From a virus (Duplodnaviria; Heunggongvirae; Uroviricota; Caudoviricetes), in the IMG/VR virus record IMGVR_UViG_3300023487_000043, positions 1 to 6,094 of that record: 6,094 bases of DNA. The stretch is one strand, 5' to 3'. Positions 1,297 to 4,735 of this stretch are shown here, piece by piece. The number at the start of each line of letters is the position of its first letter. The first letter of the stretch is position 1. The notes beneath the pieces were generated by a model. It did no database searches, was not told the origin of the DNA, and saw nothing but the letters and a program-made list of their open reading frames with translations. The position numbers and the translations under genes are program-made.

Positions 1297-1596
1297 TCAA
1301 ATAAGTGGTTTGCTGCCTAATTTCATTTTCTGGCGACCAACACAAGTCACACCCATTTCACTGCGTGGCTTGCTGTAGTAAATACGGTTCTGTTTACGCT
1401 CGACTTCTTCTGCCTTCTTGCAGCGAAGGCTTCCGAGTGATGCTGCTTTATCTGCTCTGACGCAACCAGAGAGCTTTAGCGCAATTTTTCGCGCCAGTCG
1501 CTGCTCTTGCATTGCCTGCTCACGTTGAGCCTGTCTGCGTGCTCTGCGGCGATTTCTGGCGTTATCGTCAGCCAGATATGTAATGACTACTGTCAT
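1297..1596 (-). CDS. N-like transcription antiterminator (P22 gene 24 / lambda N family)
   Basis: 99 aa. N-terminal MTVVITY followed by an arginine-rich motif NARNRRRARRQAQREQ typical of N-family boxB-binding peptides. First gene downstream of pL/nutL. GGAGG 5 nt upstream of the ATG. Confidence 0.7.
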   Translation of the reverse strand: MTVVITYLADDNARNRRRARRQAQREQAMQEQRLARKIALKLSGCVRADKAASLGSLRCKKAEEVERKQNRIYYSKPRSEMGVTCVGRQKMKLGSKPLI

Positions 1597-1703
1597 GTTG
1601 ACCTCCGATGATTGACTTTGGCGGTGACGCGCCGGGTGCTTATCTTCCGGTTGCCGTCGTGCAGCTGCACTTCACGTCACCCCAAAGCCAACTACTCTTT
1701 GGT

Positions 1704-1744
1704 TCCCGCATTTCGGCGGGACAATCCCATCAATGTTAAAGAGC
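1704..1744 (-). promoter_or_regulatory. nutL (boxA + boxB)
   Basis: Minus strand reads GCTCTTTAACA (boxA, plus 1734-1744), a 12-nt spacer, then hairpin UCCCGC-CGAAAU-GCGGGA (plus 1704-1721). The same boxA and an identical boxB recur at nutR. Confidence 0.6.
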
Positions 1745-1790
1745 CTGCCAATCTGTTCCGTTTGGCTTCCAGCGTCCTGCTGATGGCTTA

Positions 1791-1844
1791 AATTTAAGAT
1801 CTCTTTAATTAATGGTCAAGAGTATTTTTGAAGAAAACTTAAAT
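1791..1844 (-). promoter_or_regulatory. OL operators and putative pL
   Basis: 18-bp site ATTTAAGATCTCTTTAAT (1792-1809) fits the P22 c2 half-site pattern ATTTAAG/CTTTAAT. A second site TTTGAAGAAAACTTAAAT (1827-1844). Minus-strand -35 TTGACC (plus 1814-1819), 17-bp spacer, weak -10 TAAATT (plus 1791-1796). Confidence 0.55.
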
Positions 1845-1882
1845 TTTCTTTCGTAACTTAAGTTTGGCTTTGATTTTTAAAG

Positions 1883-1910
1883 GAAATAAAAAAAAGGGGC
1901 GAATGCCCCC
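1883..1910 (-). terminator. Intrinsic terminator immediately after the c2 stop
   Basis: Minus strand after the TAA stop: GGGGC-AUUC-GCCCC followed by 8 U (plus stem 1896-1900/1905-1909, A-run 1884-1895). Confidence 0.6.
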
Positions 1911-2561
1911 TTATGGAAGGTTTGCTAGTTTTGCATCGACAACTACGCCGATGATTTTGCAGTTTCCGTTGATCTCGATCATCGGATATTGTGGGTTAAG
2001 TGGTTTTAGAAACTTCCTGCCTGCATCAATAACTAACTTCTTGAAAGTTGCCTCGTTTTCTCCTTCGAGCTTTGCAACTACCAGTTTCCCGTTACGCGGC
2101 TCTACTTCAGGATCGACGAGTATTATCATTCCTTCAGGGATACTGAGACCGGCCGGAGCCGTCATTGAGTCTCCCTTCACATCCAACCAAAACGAATCTT
2201 CTGAACAGTCTACGGTTGTATCGTACCAGTTATCTATTGCACGCTTATGATATGGTTCTACAGCTTCCATCCAGCATCCTGCGCTCACCCAGCTAATCAG
2301 AGGGTATGACCCTCTTGGATCATGCCTACTGTGATAGGCAATGTTTGAAAGACTTTCCTCTCCTTTCATCAGATAGTCAGGGGAACACTTCAACGCATTA
2401 GCCAGGGCGAGAAGATTCTCTCCATTTGGCTCTGTCTCAGAGCGTTCCCACTGAGATATGGCAACATTAGACACGCCGACCATCTTTCCAAGTGCGGCCT
2501 GCCTGATCTTGAGTTCTTTTCTCCGAGCGCGAATGCGCTCTCCCATCAATTGAGTTTTCAT
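1911..2561 (-). CDS. c2: Prophage repressor, P22 c2-type (N-terminal HTH, C-terminal S24/LexA-like autopeptidase)
   Basis: 216 aa. Near-identical by recollection to P22 C2 (MKTQLMGERIRARRKELKIRQAALGKMVGVSNVAISQWERSE...). C-terminal GDSM serine motif. Divergent from cro across an operator region. Confidence 0.93.
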   Translation of the reverse strand: MKTQLMGERIRARRKELKIRQAALGKMVGVSNVAISQWERSETEPNGENLLALANALKCSPDYLMKGEESLSNIAYHSRHDPRGSYPLISWVSAGCWMEAVEPYHKRAIDNWYDTTVDCSEDSFWLDVKGDSMTAPAGLSIPEGMIILVDPEVEPRNGKLVVAKLEGENEATFKKLVIDAGRKFLKPLNPQYPMIEINGNCKIIGVVVDAKLANLP

Positions 2562-2958: not shown

Positions 2959-3229
2959 CGAGGCTCTAAGAATCGAGAGTGCGTTGCTTAACAAAATCGC
3001 AATGCTTGGAACTGAGAAGACAGCGGAAGCTGTGGGAGTTGATAAGTCGCAGATCAGCAGGTGGAAGAGGGATTGGATTCCAAAGTTCTCAATGCTGCTT
3101 GCTGTTCTTGAATGGGGCGTCGTCGACGACGACATGGCTCGATTGGCACGACAAGTTGCTTCGATTCTCACCAATAAAAAACGCCCGGCGGCAACCGAGC
3201 GTTCTGAACAAATCCAGATGGAATTCTGA
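2936..3229 (+). CDS. cII: CII transcriptional activator (lambda-type)
   Basis: 97 aa MVRANKRNEALRIESALLNKIAMLGTEKTAEAVGVDKSQISRWKRDWIPKFSMLLAVLEWGVVDDDMARLARQVASILTNKKRPAATERSEQIQMEF, essentially identical to lambda CII by recollection. The ORF-track start at 2849 is an upstream frame extension. Confidence 0.92.
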   Translation: MVRANKRNEALRIESALLNKIAMLGTEKTAEAVGVDKSQISRWKRDWIPKFSMLLAVLEWGVVDDDMARLARQVASILTNKKRPAATERSEQIQMEF

Positions 3230-3906: not shown

Positions 3907-4735
3907 AGTATTTTACCTGCCGAAGAGTGAACCTGTTGAACAGGAGCGAAGAGTGGCTGATATCGATGATGGTTACACCAGATTCGCTAACGAGCTGCTG
4001 GAAGCTATCGCAAGTGCCGATTTAACCGCTCGCCAGTTGAAAGTTATGCTGGCCTACGTCCGGAAAACATATGGCTTCAATAAGAAAACAGATCGAATAG
4101 CCGATGAGCAAATTGCTCAGTTAACAGGACTGTCAAGGCAGAATGTTAACAAGGCTAAAAAAGAACTGATTTCAATGAATTGCCTGTTTATGGATGGAAA
4201 TCAAATCGGTGTAAACAGGGAGGTATCTGCGTGGCAATTCAGCAAGTGTCTCCAAGTTAGCAACTTTGTCTCGAAGTTAGAGACAAAAAGTGTCTCCAAA
4301 TTAGAGACACTCAATGTCTCGAAGTTAGAGACACACAAAAGACATTCTTTAAAGACAAAAGAAAATATTAATAAACCCCCTATATCCCCCAAAAAAGTTT
4401 CTCAGAAGTTCGACCCGCTAGAAACAGAGTTGCCTGATTGGTTATCAGCAGAAACATGGTTGTCGTGGGTTACCTATCGCAAGGAGATAGGTAAGTCGAT
4501 CAAGTCTAAGCAAAGTGTCACTCAGGCTATCAACGTTCTATGCAGAAGTCTGGAGAAGGGATATACACCTGAAGAAATTATAAACCAGAGCATCGCCAGT
4601 GGTTGGCAGGGTATTTTTGAGCCCAAGACTCCAAAGGGGAAATCTCAACCGAGGCCGCAGCATCGAGCTATGCAGGAAAACTTTGCCACCAAAGATTACG
4701 GACAAACTGAAATGCCTTCATGGGCGCAGGAGTGA
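3893..4735 (+). CDS. Replication initiator, lambda O-like (280 aa from ATG 3893)
   Basis: QERRVADIDDGYTRFANELLEA...RQLKVMLAYVRKTYGFNKKTDRI aligns with the lambda O N-terminal domain (QERNVADLDDGYARLSNMLLEA...). GGAGG 6 nt before ATG 3893. Iterons lie mid-gene. The upstream TTG (3860) and ATG (3878) lack an SD. Confidence 0.85.
   Translation: MSLAEVFYLPKSEPVEQERRVADIDDGYTRFANELLEAIASADLTARQLKVMLAYVRKTYGFNKKTDRIADEQIAQLTGLSRQNVNKAKKELISMNCLFMDGNQIGVNREVSAWQFSKCLQVSNFVSKLETKSVSKLETLNVSKLETHKRHSLKTKENINKPPISPKKVSQKFDPLETELPDWLSAETWLSWVTYRKEIGKSIKSKQSVTQAINVLCRSLEKGYTPEEIINQSIASGWQGIFEPKTPKGKSQPRPQHRAMQENFATKDYGQTEMPSWAQE
4247..4400. repeat. Replication origin: four iterons plus AT-rich region inside the O-like gene
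   Basis: 17-bp iterons at 4248-4264 (GTCTCCAAGTTAGCAAC), 4268-4284 and 4316-4332 (GTCTCGAAGTTAGAGAC), 4292-4308 (GTCTCCAAATTAGAGAC), each with GTCTC/GAGAC dyad ends. Followed by an A/T-rich tract 4333-4400. Confidence 0.8.

What the first reader, a model, noticed from the sequence alone, without database searches (positions are those of the whole stretch)
1597..1703. Structured GC-rich leader between nutL and the N-like start codon
The leader contains a perfect 12-bp palindrome GTGCAGCTGCAC (1659-1670) nested within the inverted repeat GGTGACG (1623-1629) / CGTCACC (1675-1681). Lambda N translation is controlled by an RNase III-processed leader structure, so a comparable element here is plausible.
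Basis: partly seen in the sequence, partly recalled or inferred. Interest (0 to 1): 0.35.

Follow-up and report, generated by a model that had tools for sequence, protein, structure and literature searches.

The report
RNase III-type hairpin in N leader
The GC-rich repeats are part of a conserved 82-nt RNA hairpin between nutL and the N start codon, the counterpart of the hairpin that RNase III cuts in phage lambda's N leader; it is an ordinary but well-supported member of a known kind of regulatory element.

Summary
Taken alone they are not unusual: the window holds four 12-nt palindromes against about 1.5 expected. They belong to a larger structure on the minus-strand (pL) transcript. This is an 82-nt hairpin (1692-1611) whose outer helix has 20 bp and one bulged G (1622). 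It starts 11 nt after boxB and ends 4 nt before the N Shine-Dalgarno (folding z = -4.3).

The same helix, with base GCUUUGGG / C-R-CCAAAG, lies upstream of at least ten N-protein types, including lambda, 21, 933W-like, Erwinia and Yersinia phages. Covariation is strong: 94.5% of cells pair and 11 of 20 pairs change on both sides. The interior varies from 68 to 229 nt, while the distances to boxA and to the SD stay fixed.

In lambda this hairpin is the RNase III-sensitive structure that governs N translation. The layout here (9 bp, two near-invariant G-C pairs beside a bulged purine, 9 bp) fits the in vivo cleavage rules for E. coli RNase III.

Cleavage and RNase III-dependent N expression remain untested. 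The palindrome is only a weakly supported apical sub-hairpin. A second inner hairpin with a conserved 11-nt loop is well supported and unexplained.

Verdict: new member of a known kind, modest interest.

The parts
1791..1819 (-). pL promoter-like -35 TTGACC / -10 TAAATT
   Evidence: Consensus scan. HK620's annotated pL maps to window 1784-1819.
1784..1784 (-). Inferred pL transcription start (A of AUCAGCAGGACGC); gives a 188-nt leader
   Evidence: Homology to the annotated pL start of phage 21 and to the start of lambda's leader. Inferred, not mapped.
1737..1744 (-). nutL boxA GCTCTTTA
   Evidence: Identical to phage 21's annotated boxA-L. Lies inside HK620's annotated nutL.
1704..1721 (-). 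nutL boxB hairpin UCCCGC-CGAAAU-GCGGGA
   Evidence: Inverted repeat I15. Present in the MFE and the centroid. Lies inside HK620's nutL annotation.
1697..1702 (-). Upstream CCAAAG, complementary to the CUUUGG of the 5' arm (possible alternative hairpin, or 3'-terminal hairpin of the nutL fragment after cleavage)
   Evidence: Inverted repeat I12. A YCAAAG 4-9 nt upstream of the arm recurs in nearly all lineages. Its function is inferred only.
1673..1692 (-).
   Evidence: Folds. Covariation on 33 distinct arm pairs.
1659..1670 (-).
   Evidence: MFE. Only 83% of cells pair, one pair covaries, and it is broken in the sal4 and L100 groups. Competing pairings score similarly.
1632..1650 (-). Inner hairpin II: CCGG-AAGAUAAGCAC-CCGG, with a conserved 11-nt loop
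   Evidence: MFE. 98.2% of cells pair and 4 of 5 pairs change on both sides; the loop is near-invariant.
1611..1631 (-).
1602..1606 (-). Shine-Dalgarno GGAGG of N, 4 nt after the helix
   Evidence: Sequence. The CCAAAG-to-SD distance is 8-10 nt in 42 distinct leaders.
1297..1596 (-). N-like antiterminator gene (99 aa, arginine-rich N-terminal motif)
   Evidence: ORF list. phrog_271, E=5e-37. Pfam N_peptide scores 18.5 bits, below its cut-off. Homologues are annotated as N.

Best explanation
The region is the structured part of the pL leader of a lambdoid (HK620/N7-like) phage. The leftward transcript, with an inferred start at 1784, carries these elements in order:
- nutL: boxA 1744-1737 and boxB 1721-1704;
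- an 82-nt hairpin, 1692-1611;
- the N ribosome-binding site: SD 1606-1602 and AUG 1596.

The hairpin is the orthologue of the RNase III-sensitive hairpin of lambda's N leader. Its 20-bp outer helix has 9 bp, then two G-C pairs (G1683-C1620 and G1682-C1621) beside the bulged G1622, then 9 bp.

The proposed mechanism, inferred from lambda, has two steps.
1. The helix pulls nutL to within a few nucleotides of the N ribosome-binding site. N and the Nus factors bound at nutL on the elongating polymerase can then repress N translation.
2. Host RNase III cuts both strands across the two G-C pairs. The predicted cuts are G1682|G1681 and C1620|A1619, leaving a 2-nt 3' overhang plus the bulge. This separates nutL from the N message, relieves the repression, and ties N synthesis to RNase III activity.

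Shown here: the structure, its homology to lambda, covariation, and the conserved geometry. Inferred: the cleavage, the cut positions and the regulatory outcome.
For: Folding:
- The hairpin is stable and well defined: -40.6 kcal/mol, z = -4.29, 0 of 200 shuffles, MFE equal to centroid.
- Lambda and phage 21 leaders fold the same way, z = -3.65 and -4.20.

Homology:
- The leader is about 74% identical to phage 21's and 76% identical to the leader of lambda-named records.
- The helix base is shared with lambda NC_001416.

Covariation:
- On 33 distinct arm pairs, 94.5% of cells pair against 78.6% in shuffles (0 of 500).
- 11 of 20 pairs change on both sides. The covariation score is 0.476 against 0.170.
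- Slid registers give only 31-44% pairing.
- The helix stops uniformly 9 bp above the bulge.

Generality without pattern bias:
- 79 of 80 loci chosen only by the window's N protein have the helix within 600 nt upstream.
- All 19 distinct leaders with a lambda-type boxB, from loci chosen by lambda N, fold into it. They include compensated changes in otherwise invariant pairs: G-C to A-U and G-C to U-A.
- The helix precedes at least ten different N N-termini.

Geometry:
- The core length runs from 68 to 229 nt, yet boxA-to-arm is 40-52 nt and CCAAAG-to-SD is 8-10 nt.

Literature:
- RNase III positively regulates lambda N mRNA (PMC9032294).
- The rnc70 allele (RNase III that binds dsRNA but does not cleave) is dominant over wild type in regulating N mRNA (PMC8708148).
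- In vivo, E. coli RNase III double cuts flank two paired, G-C-rich positions. In targets whose cuts lie 3 duplex positions apart, 80% have a bulge, giving one 3-nt end (PMC6212723). This matches the near-invariant GG/CC pairs beside the bulged purine.

Context:
- The ORF is N-like.
Against: - There is no cleavage or expression data for this phage or its near-identical relatives (HK620, mEpX2, N7).
- Lambda's exact cut positions (+88/89 and +197/198) are recalled from memory. The primary papers (Steege 1987, Kameyama 1991, Wilson 1997 and 2002) were not readable here.
- The SD itself is not sequestered in the predicted fold, so any translational effect must be indirect, as proposed for lambda.
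- 33 of the 80 loci chosen by the window's N protein have 150-250 nt inserted between the helix and N. Tight apposition of the helix to the N ribosome-binding site is therefore not obligatory.
- Part of the invariance of the helix base in alignment A1 was imposed by the search pattern used to collect IMG/VR sequences.
- No Rfam model exists to score membership.
Confidence: 0.8

Rival explanations
1. The helix is only a structural tether or stabiliser. It brings nutL next to the N ribosome-binding site, or protects the RNA, but RNase III does not cleave it in this phage. Its conservation would reflect N autoregulation or RNA folding alone.
For: The conserved flank distances and covarying helix would be expected for a pure tether too. 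PMC8708148 reports that binding-competent, cleavage-deficient RNase III still regulates lambda N mRNA, so cleavage and regulation can be separated.
Against: The helix length (20 bp), the symmetric 9+2+9 layout, the near-invariant G-C pairs and the adjacent bulge fit the RNase III cleavage rules. The helix base is homologous to lambda's, and lambda's N mRNA is an RNase III target.
Confidence: 0.1
2. The conserved sequences flanking a variable interior are DNA-level homology patches ('boundary sequences') that promote mosaic recombination among lambdoid phages, with no RNA function of their own.
For: The interior is highly mosaic, and different nutL, N and interior modules are joined at or near the helix base. 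CUS-3 annotates the whole cI-N interval as boundary sequence bsq5.
Against: Compensatory double substitutions in 11 of 20 helix pairs and 4 of 5 pairs of hairpin II are not explained by recombination homology. The uniform helix length and fixed distances to boxA and the SD point to selection at the RNA level. The two ideas can coexist.
Confidence: 0.04
3. The hairpin is a transcription terminator or pause signal between nutL and N.
For: It is a strong GC-rich hairpin on the pL transcript.
Against: No U-tract follows it: the next bases are CAUCGGAGGUCAAC. The terminator scan reports nothing on the - strand here. Its only hit in the interval is a weak + strand match at 1617-1636. A terminator 4 nt before the first gene's SD would block N synthesis before any N exists.
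Confidence: 0.02
4. The palindrome and the 7-nt inverted repeat are chance features or a DNA protein-binding or restriction site (CAGCTG).
For: 12-nt palindromes and 7-nt inverted repeats of this kind occur at near-chance rates in the window. The palindrome is not conserved as a palindrome in phage 21, the sal4 group or the L100 group.
Against: The 7-nt repeat is part of a helix with strong covariation. The closing pair of the palindrome shows one G-C to U-A swap between lineages.
Confidence: 0.03

Closest known systems
RNase III-sensitive hairpin of the phage lambda N leader (Steege 1987; Kameyama 1991; Wilson 1997, 2002)
   Same: - Same order of elements: pL, nutL (boxA, boxB), long hairpin, N ribosome-binding site.
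- Homologous helix base, GGCUUUGGGG / CC-R-CCAAAG, with a bulged purine at the same place.
- Helix ends a few nt before the SD.

   Different: - The upper helix sequence differs by compensated changes: GUGACGUG/CGCGUCAC here, GUGUGUG/CACACAC in lambda.
- The interior is a different, shorter module: 41 nt with two small hairpins, against about 90 nt in lambda.
- boxB and the N arginine-rich motif are of a different specificity.
- No experimental data exist for this leader.
rrn operon leader-trailer helix with boxC (RNase III processing stem flanking 16S rRNA)
   Same: - A boxA-containing antitermination site is followed at a fixed distance by the 5' strand of a long helix.
- That helix is an RNase III substrate and closes around a variable or large insert.
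- Structure matters more than the boxC sequence.
(PMC10250234, PMC8632103)
   Different: - The enclosed RNA here is 41 nt in the window and up to about 190 nt in relatives, not a 1.5-kb rRNA.
- Element order is boxA-boxB-helix rather than boxB-boxA-boxC.
- The proposed purpose is control of N translation, not ribosome assembly.
- This is a resemblance in how it works, not membership.
Other RNase III-activated phage messages (lambda cIII, T7 early mRNAs)
   Same: Host RNase III acts on a structured 5' or intercistronic region and raises expression (PMC5371410, PMC9032294).
   Different: In cIII the structure involves the ribosome-binding site itself. Here the SD is outside the helix, and the effect is proposed to work by uncoupling nutL from the ribosome-binding site.

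Membership tests
Lambdoid N-leader RNase III hairpin (lambda-type) | Lies on the pL transcript between nutL and the N ribosome-binding site | tested here: met
   boxA 1744-1737, boxB 1721-1704, helix 1692-1611, SD 1606-1602, N AUG 1596.
Lambdoid N-leader RNase III hairpin (lambda-type) | Long, mostly regular dsRNA helix of about two turns | tested here: met
   20 bp with one bulge; -40.6 kcal/mol, z = -4.29.
Lambdoid N-leader RNase III hairpin (lambda-type) | Sequence homology of the helix to lambda's leader | tested here: met
   Shared GGCUUUGGGG...CACC-R-CCAAAG. BLAST gives 76% identity to lambda-named records over 148 nt.
Lambdoid N-leader RNase III hairpin (lambda-type) | Helix maintained by compensatory substitutions among relatives | tested here: met
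   94.5% paired; 11 of 20 pairs change on both sides; 0 of 500 shuffles reach this. Confirmed in sets chosen by N protein alone.
Lambdoid N-leader RNase III hairpin (lambda-type) | Local features of E. coli RNase III double-cleavage sites (two paired, G-C-rich positions between the cuts; 2-nt 3' overhang) | tested here: inconclusive
   Near-invariant GG/CC pairs flanked by 9 bp on each side, with an adjacent bulge, fit the qualitative rule in PMC6212723. The quantitative scoring matrix (their Table S4) was not available.
Lambdoid N-leader RNase III hairpin (lambda-type) | Cleaved by RNase III in vitro or in vivo | not testable with these tools
   Needs cleavage assays or rnc+/rnc- end mapping.
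Lambdoid N-leader RNase III hairpin (lambda-type) | N expression depends on RNase III and on nutL plus N | not testable with these tools
   Needs N-lacZ fusions in rnc+ and rnc- hosts.
N antiterminator / nut system | Downstream gene encodes an N-like protein with an arginine-rich N-terminal motif | tested here: met
   phrog_271, E=5e-37. The Pfam N_peptide hit is below its cut-off, 18.5 against 27.9 bits. Sequence NARNRRRARRQAQ.
Intrinsic terminator | GC-rich hairpin followed directly by a U-tract on the transcribed strand | tested here: not met
   No U-tract after 1611. No - strand terminator hit in 1597-1703.
Any curated Rfam family | Covariance-model match | tested here: not met
   No hit in the window at E<=1. 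Lambda's and phage 21's own leaders have no hit at gathering score either, so no family exists for this element.

The most novel reading that the evidence does not exclude
The outer helix may be a conserved RNase III 'excision cassette', a miniature of the rrn leader-trailer helix, and its variable interior may be cargo with functions of its own. The main candidate is hairpin II. Its 11-nt loop (AAGAUAAGCAC; consensus RAGAUMAGCRY) is kept across 21-, HK620-, 933W- and lambda-type N leaders and in a non-N context in Enterobacter phage ENT1, while its stem covaries. That loop could be the seed or ligand site of a small RNA released by RNase III. In one uncultivated phage the interior is tRNA-like.
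Probability: 0.12. Interest if true: 0.6.

Novelty: new member of a known kind. Interest (0 to 1): 0.3.

Why it matters
It extends a classic lambda regulatory device, RNase III control of N synthesis through the leader hairpin, to the HK620/N7-type leader. That leader is present in about 10% of complete E. coli genomes.

The helix also appears to be a near-universal, covariation-supported feature of lambdoid N leaders, whatever the N/nut specificity. The comparison gives exact predicted cut sites and a set of natural compensatory variants for testing. It also flags two unexplained conserved pieces: the hairpin II loop and the upstream CCAAAG. No curated RNA family covers this element.

Tried and rejected
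- Rfam scans of the window at E<=1, and of lambda, 21 and 15 other leaders at gathering score, found no family for the hairpin. The only hit was the cIII thermoregulator in L007.
- The primary lambda papers (PMC126142, PMC275398, PMC3545037 and a guessed id for the Court 2013 review) are not held. The lambda GenBank records carry no RNase III feature. Lambda's cut coordinates therefore rest on memory.
- A genome-contig scan with GAAGATAAGCACCNNGNC was swamped by chance matches (15 specified bases in 596 Gb). None of the 120 loci returned had the helix context.
- Folding 260 nt upstream of lambda-type N genes and taking the outermost pair gave spurious long-range pairs. This was replaced by folding from boxB to the SD.
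- A search for a complement of the hairpin II loop in the window found only the loop's own + strand copy.
- The test of the upstream CCAAAG alternative hairpin against shuffles did not discriminate: 7.0 against 5.8 bp, and the motif is invariant.
- The tRNA idea for the interiors: ARAGORN calls one tRNA-like sequence in L129, but the Rfam tRNA model does not reach its gathering score, and none was called in the eight other loci scanned.
- Three competing pairings for the apical region were counted: the palindrome, GCUG/CGGC and UGC/GCA. None is clearly preferred.
- The terminator reading was rejected.

Full report
**Context.** The window is the immunity and early region of a mosaic lambdoid (P22-like, Lederbergvirus-type) coliphage. 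It is closest to Escherichia phage N7 (99.5% over 63% of the window), then CUS-3 and IME10.
- On the - strand lie a cI/C2-type repressor (1911-2561; Peptidase_S24 plus HTH) and an N-like gene (1297-1596; phrog_271 'anti-termination protein N-like', E=5e-37).
- On the + strand lie cro-, cII-, O- and DnaC-like genes.
- The finding sits in the cI-N intergenic region, on the leftward (pL) transcript.

**Observation.** Alone they are unremarkable.
- The window has four 12-nt palindromes against 1.5-1.7 expected, and 80% of shuffled windows have at least one.
- It has 63 seven-nt inverted repeats with spacers of 60 nt or less, against 25 in shuffles.

Folding the - strand RNA shows what they belong to: an 82-nt hairpin from 1692 to 1611.
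- The outer helix has 20 bp: 5' arm 1692-1673, 3' arm 1631-1611, and a single bulged G1622.
- Inside are a small apical hairpin made from the palindrome (GUGC-AGCU-GCAC, 1670-1659) and a second hairpin (CCGG-AAGAUAAGCAC-CCGG, 1650-1632).
- The fold is -40.6 kcal/mol, the MFE equals the centroid, z = -4.29, and no shuffle of 200 does as well. In the 176-nt leader the same hairpin and boxB are the only elements kept in the centroid.

**Anatomy of the leader.**
- pL-like hexamers lie at 1819-1791.
- The transcript start is inferred at A1784, from the annotated pL start of phage 21 and HK620's pL feature.
- boxA GCTCTTTA is at 1744-1737 and is identical to phage 21's annotated boxA-L.
- boxB is at 1721-1704. 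HK620's annotated nutL maps to 1704-1745.
- The helix starts 11 nt after boxB and ends 4 nt before the SD GGAGG (1606-1602). The AUG is at 1596.

**Relatives.**
- The leader is 99-100% identical in HK620, mEpX2, ECP1, HK630 and others. It is about 74% identical to phage 21's leader and 76% identical to that of lambda-named records.
- It occurs in 543 of 5426 complete E. coli genomes.
- Lambda's own leader (NC_001416) reads GGCUUUGGGGUGUGUG...CACACACC-A-CCAAAGCU at the corresponding place. This is the same helix base with the bulged purine at the same position.
- Lambda and phage 21 leaders fold into the same kind of hairpin, z = -3.65 and -4.20.

**Comparative test.** I collected leaders in three ways:
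- BLAST hits from annotated phages;
- loci chosen only by the window's N protein or by lambda N;
- a pattern scan of IMG/VR, filtered by criteria independent of the helix: boxA, the pL start motif, or an arginine-rich N-terminus downstream.

The helix precedes at least ten different N N-termini. These include lambda, 21, HK620, 933W-like, Erwinia phage 49 and Yersinia phage 210.17 types, plus several uncultivated ones.

In a fixed register, 33 distinct arm pairs give the following:
- 94.5% of cells pair, against 78.6% in shuffles (0 of 500);
- 11 of 20 pairs change on both sides, and several positions show four to six Watson-Crick or wobble pair types;
- the covariation score is 0.476 against 0.170;
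- registers slid by 1-3 columns give only 31-44% pairing.

The helix ends uniformly 9 bp above the bulge; positions beyond that are mostly unpaired.

One caveat applies. The base GCUUUGGG/CCAAAG was imposed by the pattern for the IMG/VR sequences. The sets chosen by protein alone answer this:
- 79 of 80 loci with the window's N type have the helix within 600 nt upstream.
- All 19 distinct leaders with a lambda-type boxB fold into it. They include compensated changes in otherwise invariant pairs: GCUUUGAGUAGCGCG/CGCGUUACUCAAAGC and GGU.../...A-A-CC.

The core length varies from 68 to 229 nt. Yet boxA-to-arm stays at 40-52 nt and CCAAAG-to-SD at 8-10 nt. The helix therefore places nutL and the N ribosome-binding site close together, whatever it encloses.

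**Inner elements.**
- Hairpin II is well supported: 98.2% paired and 4 of 5 pairs with double changes (stems CCGG, UCGAG/CUCGA, CCAG/CUGG, CACG/CGUG, CUGCG/CGCAG). Its 11-nt loop is nearly constant.
- The palindrome hairpin is weakly supported. It is 83% paired, one closing pair swaps G-C for U-A, and it is broken in the sal4 and L100 groups. Two competing pairings score similarly.
- The 'perfect palindrome' is therefore lineage-specific and may have little function of its own.

**Mechanism.** The accessible literature supports three points.
- N and Nus factors bound at NutL repress N translation, although nutL lies about 200 nt upstream, and the intervening RNA is highly structured (PMC5725501, citing Wilson 1997 and 2002).
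- RNase III positively regulates lambda N mRNA (PMC9032294, citing Kameyama 1991).
- The rnc70 allele, whose RNase III binds dsRNA without cleaving it, is dominant over wild type in this regulation (PMC8708148).

From my own knowledge of Wilson et al. 2002, which I could not re-read here: the lambda leader contains, in order, NUTL, an RNase III-sensitive hairpin and the N ribosome-binding site, and cleavage prevents N-mediated repression. I recall lambda's cuts at +88/89 and +197/198. In my register these fall on either side of the two G-C pairs next to the bulge.

This agrees with the in vivo rules for E. coli RNase III (PMC6212723):
- double cuts leave 2-nt 3' overhangs;
- the two positions between the cuts are paired and G-C rich;
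- 80% of targets whose cuts lie 3 duplex positions apart have a bulge, which gives one 3-nt end.

In the window the layout is 9 bp, then G1683-C1620 and G1682-C1621 beside the bulged G1622, then 9 bp. I therefore predict cuts at G1682|G1681 and C1620|A1619. They would yield:
- a nutL fragment of about 103 nt;
- an excised hairpin of about 62 nt;
- an N mRNA with a 23-nt leader.

The structure, homology and geometry are shown. The cleavage and its regulatory consequence are inferred.

**Rivals.**
- Terminator: excluded. There is no U-tract and no - strand hit.
- DNA-level recombination boundary: this fits the mosaicism but not the compensatory changes.
- Uncleaved tether: cannot be excluded without experiments.

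**Comparison with what is known.**
- The element works like, and by sequence and position belongs with, the lambda N-leader RNase III hairpin.
- It also resembles the rrn leader-trailer helix, whose 5' strand (boxC) follows boxA at a fixed distance and forms the RNase III stem (PMC10250234, PMC8632103). From memory, lambda's GU-rich 5' arm is what was historically called boxC of nutL.
- No Rfam family covers it.

**Novelty.** This is a new member of a known kind. The comparative picture may go somewhat beyond what is commonly stated: a near-universal helix, a hypervariable interior, the conserved hairpin II loop, and a conserved upstream CCAAAG able to pair with the 5' arm. I could not check the older comparative literature (for example Franklin 1985).

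Noticed in passing
L002 (CUS-3), L013, L004 and about 24 of the 80 loci; about 200 nt between the helix and the N SD: The same helix is followed by an insert before the N SD. The insert holds a mini-ORF (AGGAGGATTTATGTGA), a second nut-like site with a different boxB (e.g. GATGCTCTTTCTGCCCCTCAGTTCGAGGGGC) and a remnant mini-hairpin (CACTTTG...CCAAAGTTG). Two nutL-like sites thus stand in tandem upstream of one N gene.
   Followed up: partly
L005, L014, L021, L052 and relatives (9 of the 80 loci): A 39-aa hydrophobic ORF (MLDIMTNPILGGLVTTFAICFGFTIWSEVDDWMWERKNK), with its own SD, sits between the helix and N. In these phages the helix directly precedes this small gene, not N.
   Followed up: no
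L129 2758-2828 (-): ARAGORN calls a 71-nt tRNA-Ser(tga) inside an N-leader-type helix. The acceptor stem is the upper helix, and the bulged A plus the CCA of CCAAAG forms ACCA. The Rfam tRNA model does not reach its gathering score. The contig carries two such helices on one strand.
   Followed up: partly
L212 (Enterobacter phage ENT1), about 1780-1870 (-): The same hairpin I/II module (86% identical over 64 nt), with an outer helix GUAGUGCAG/CUGCACCAC, lies between two ORFs that are not N-like. The module is therefore not confined to N leaders.
   Followed up: partly
window 1697-1702 (-) with 1683-1688: A CCAAAG 4-9 nt upstream of the 5' arm is conserved in nearly all lineages and can pair with the arm's CUUUGG. 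After the predicted cut it would form a 3'-terminal hairpin on the nutL fragment. It is invariant, so covariation cannot test this.
   Followed up: partly
window 1636-1646 (-), loop of hairpin II: The loop AAGAUAAGCAC is near-invariant across leaders whose stems have diverged. No complementary target was found in the window.
   Followed up: partly
window 1692-1730 (-): A 12-codon ORF (MGLSRRNAGTKE*) spans boxB and stops at the first base of the helix. It has no SD. Lambda's nutL has a comparable mini-ORF (AUGAAGGUGACGCUCUUAAAAAUUAAGCCCUGA).
   Followed up: no
window 4267-4338: Three tandem 24-bp repeats (TGTCTCGAAGTTAGAGACACACAA) lie inside the O-like gene. They look like origin iterons and appear in the protein as repeated VSKLET.
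   Followed up: no
window 3118-3131: A 14-nt perfect palindrome, CGTCGTCGACGACG, lies inside the cII-like ORF. It is the longest palindrome in the window.
   Followed up: no
window 1893-1912 (-): A strong intrinsic terminator (AAGGGGGCATTCGCCCCTTT followed by a T-run) sits directly after the cI-like stop codon. It is the counterpart of tIMM annotated in HK620.
   Followed up: no
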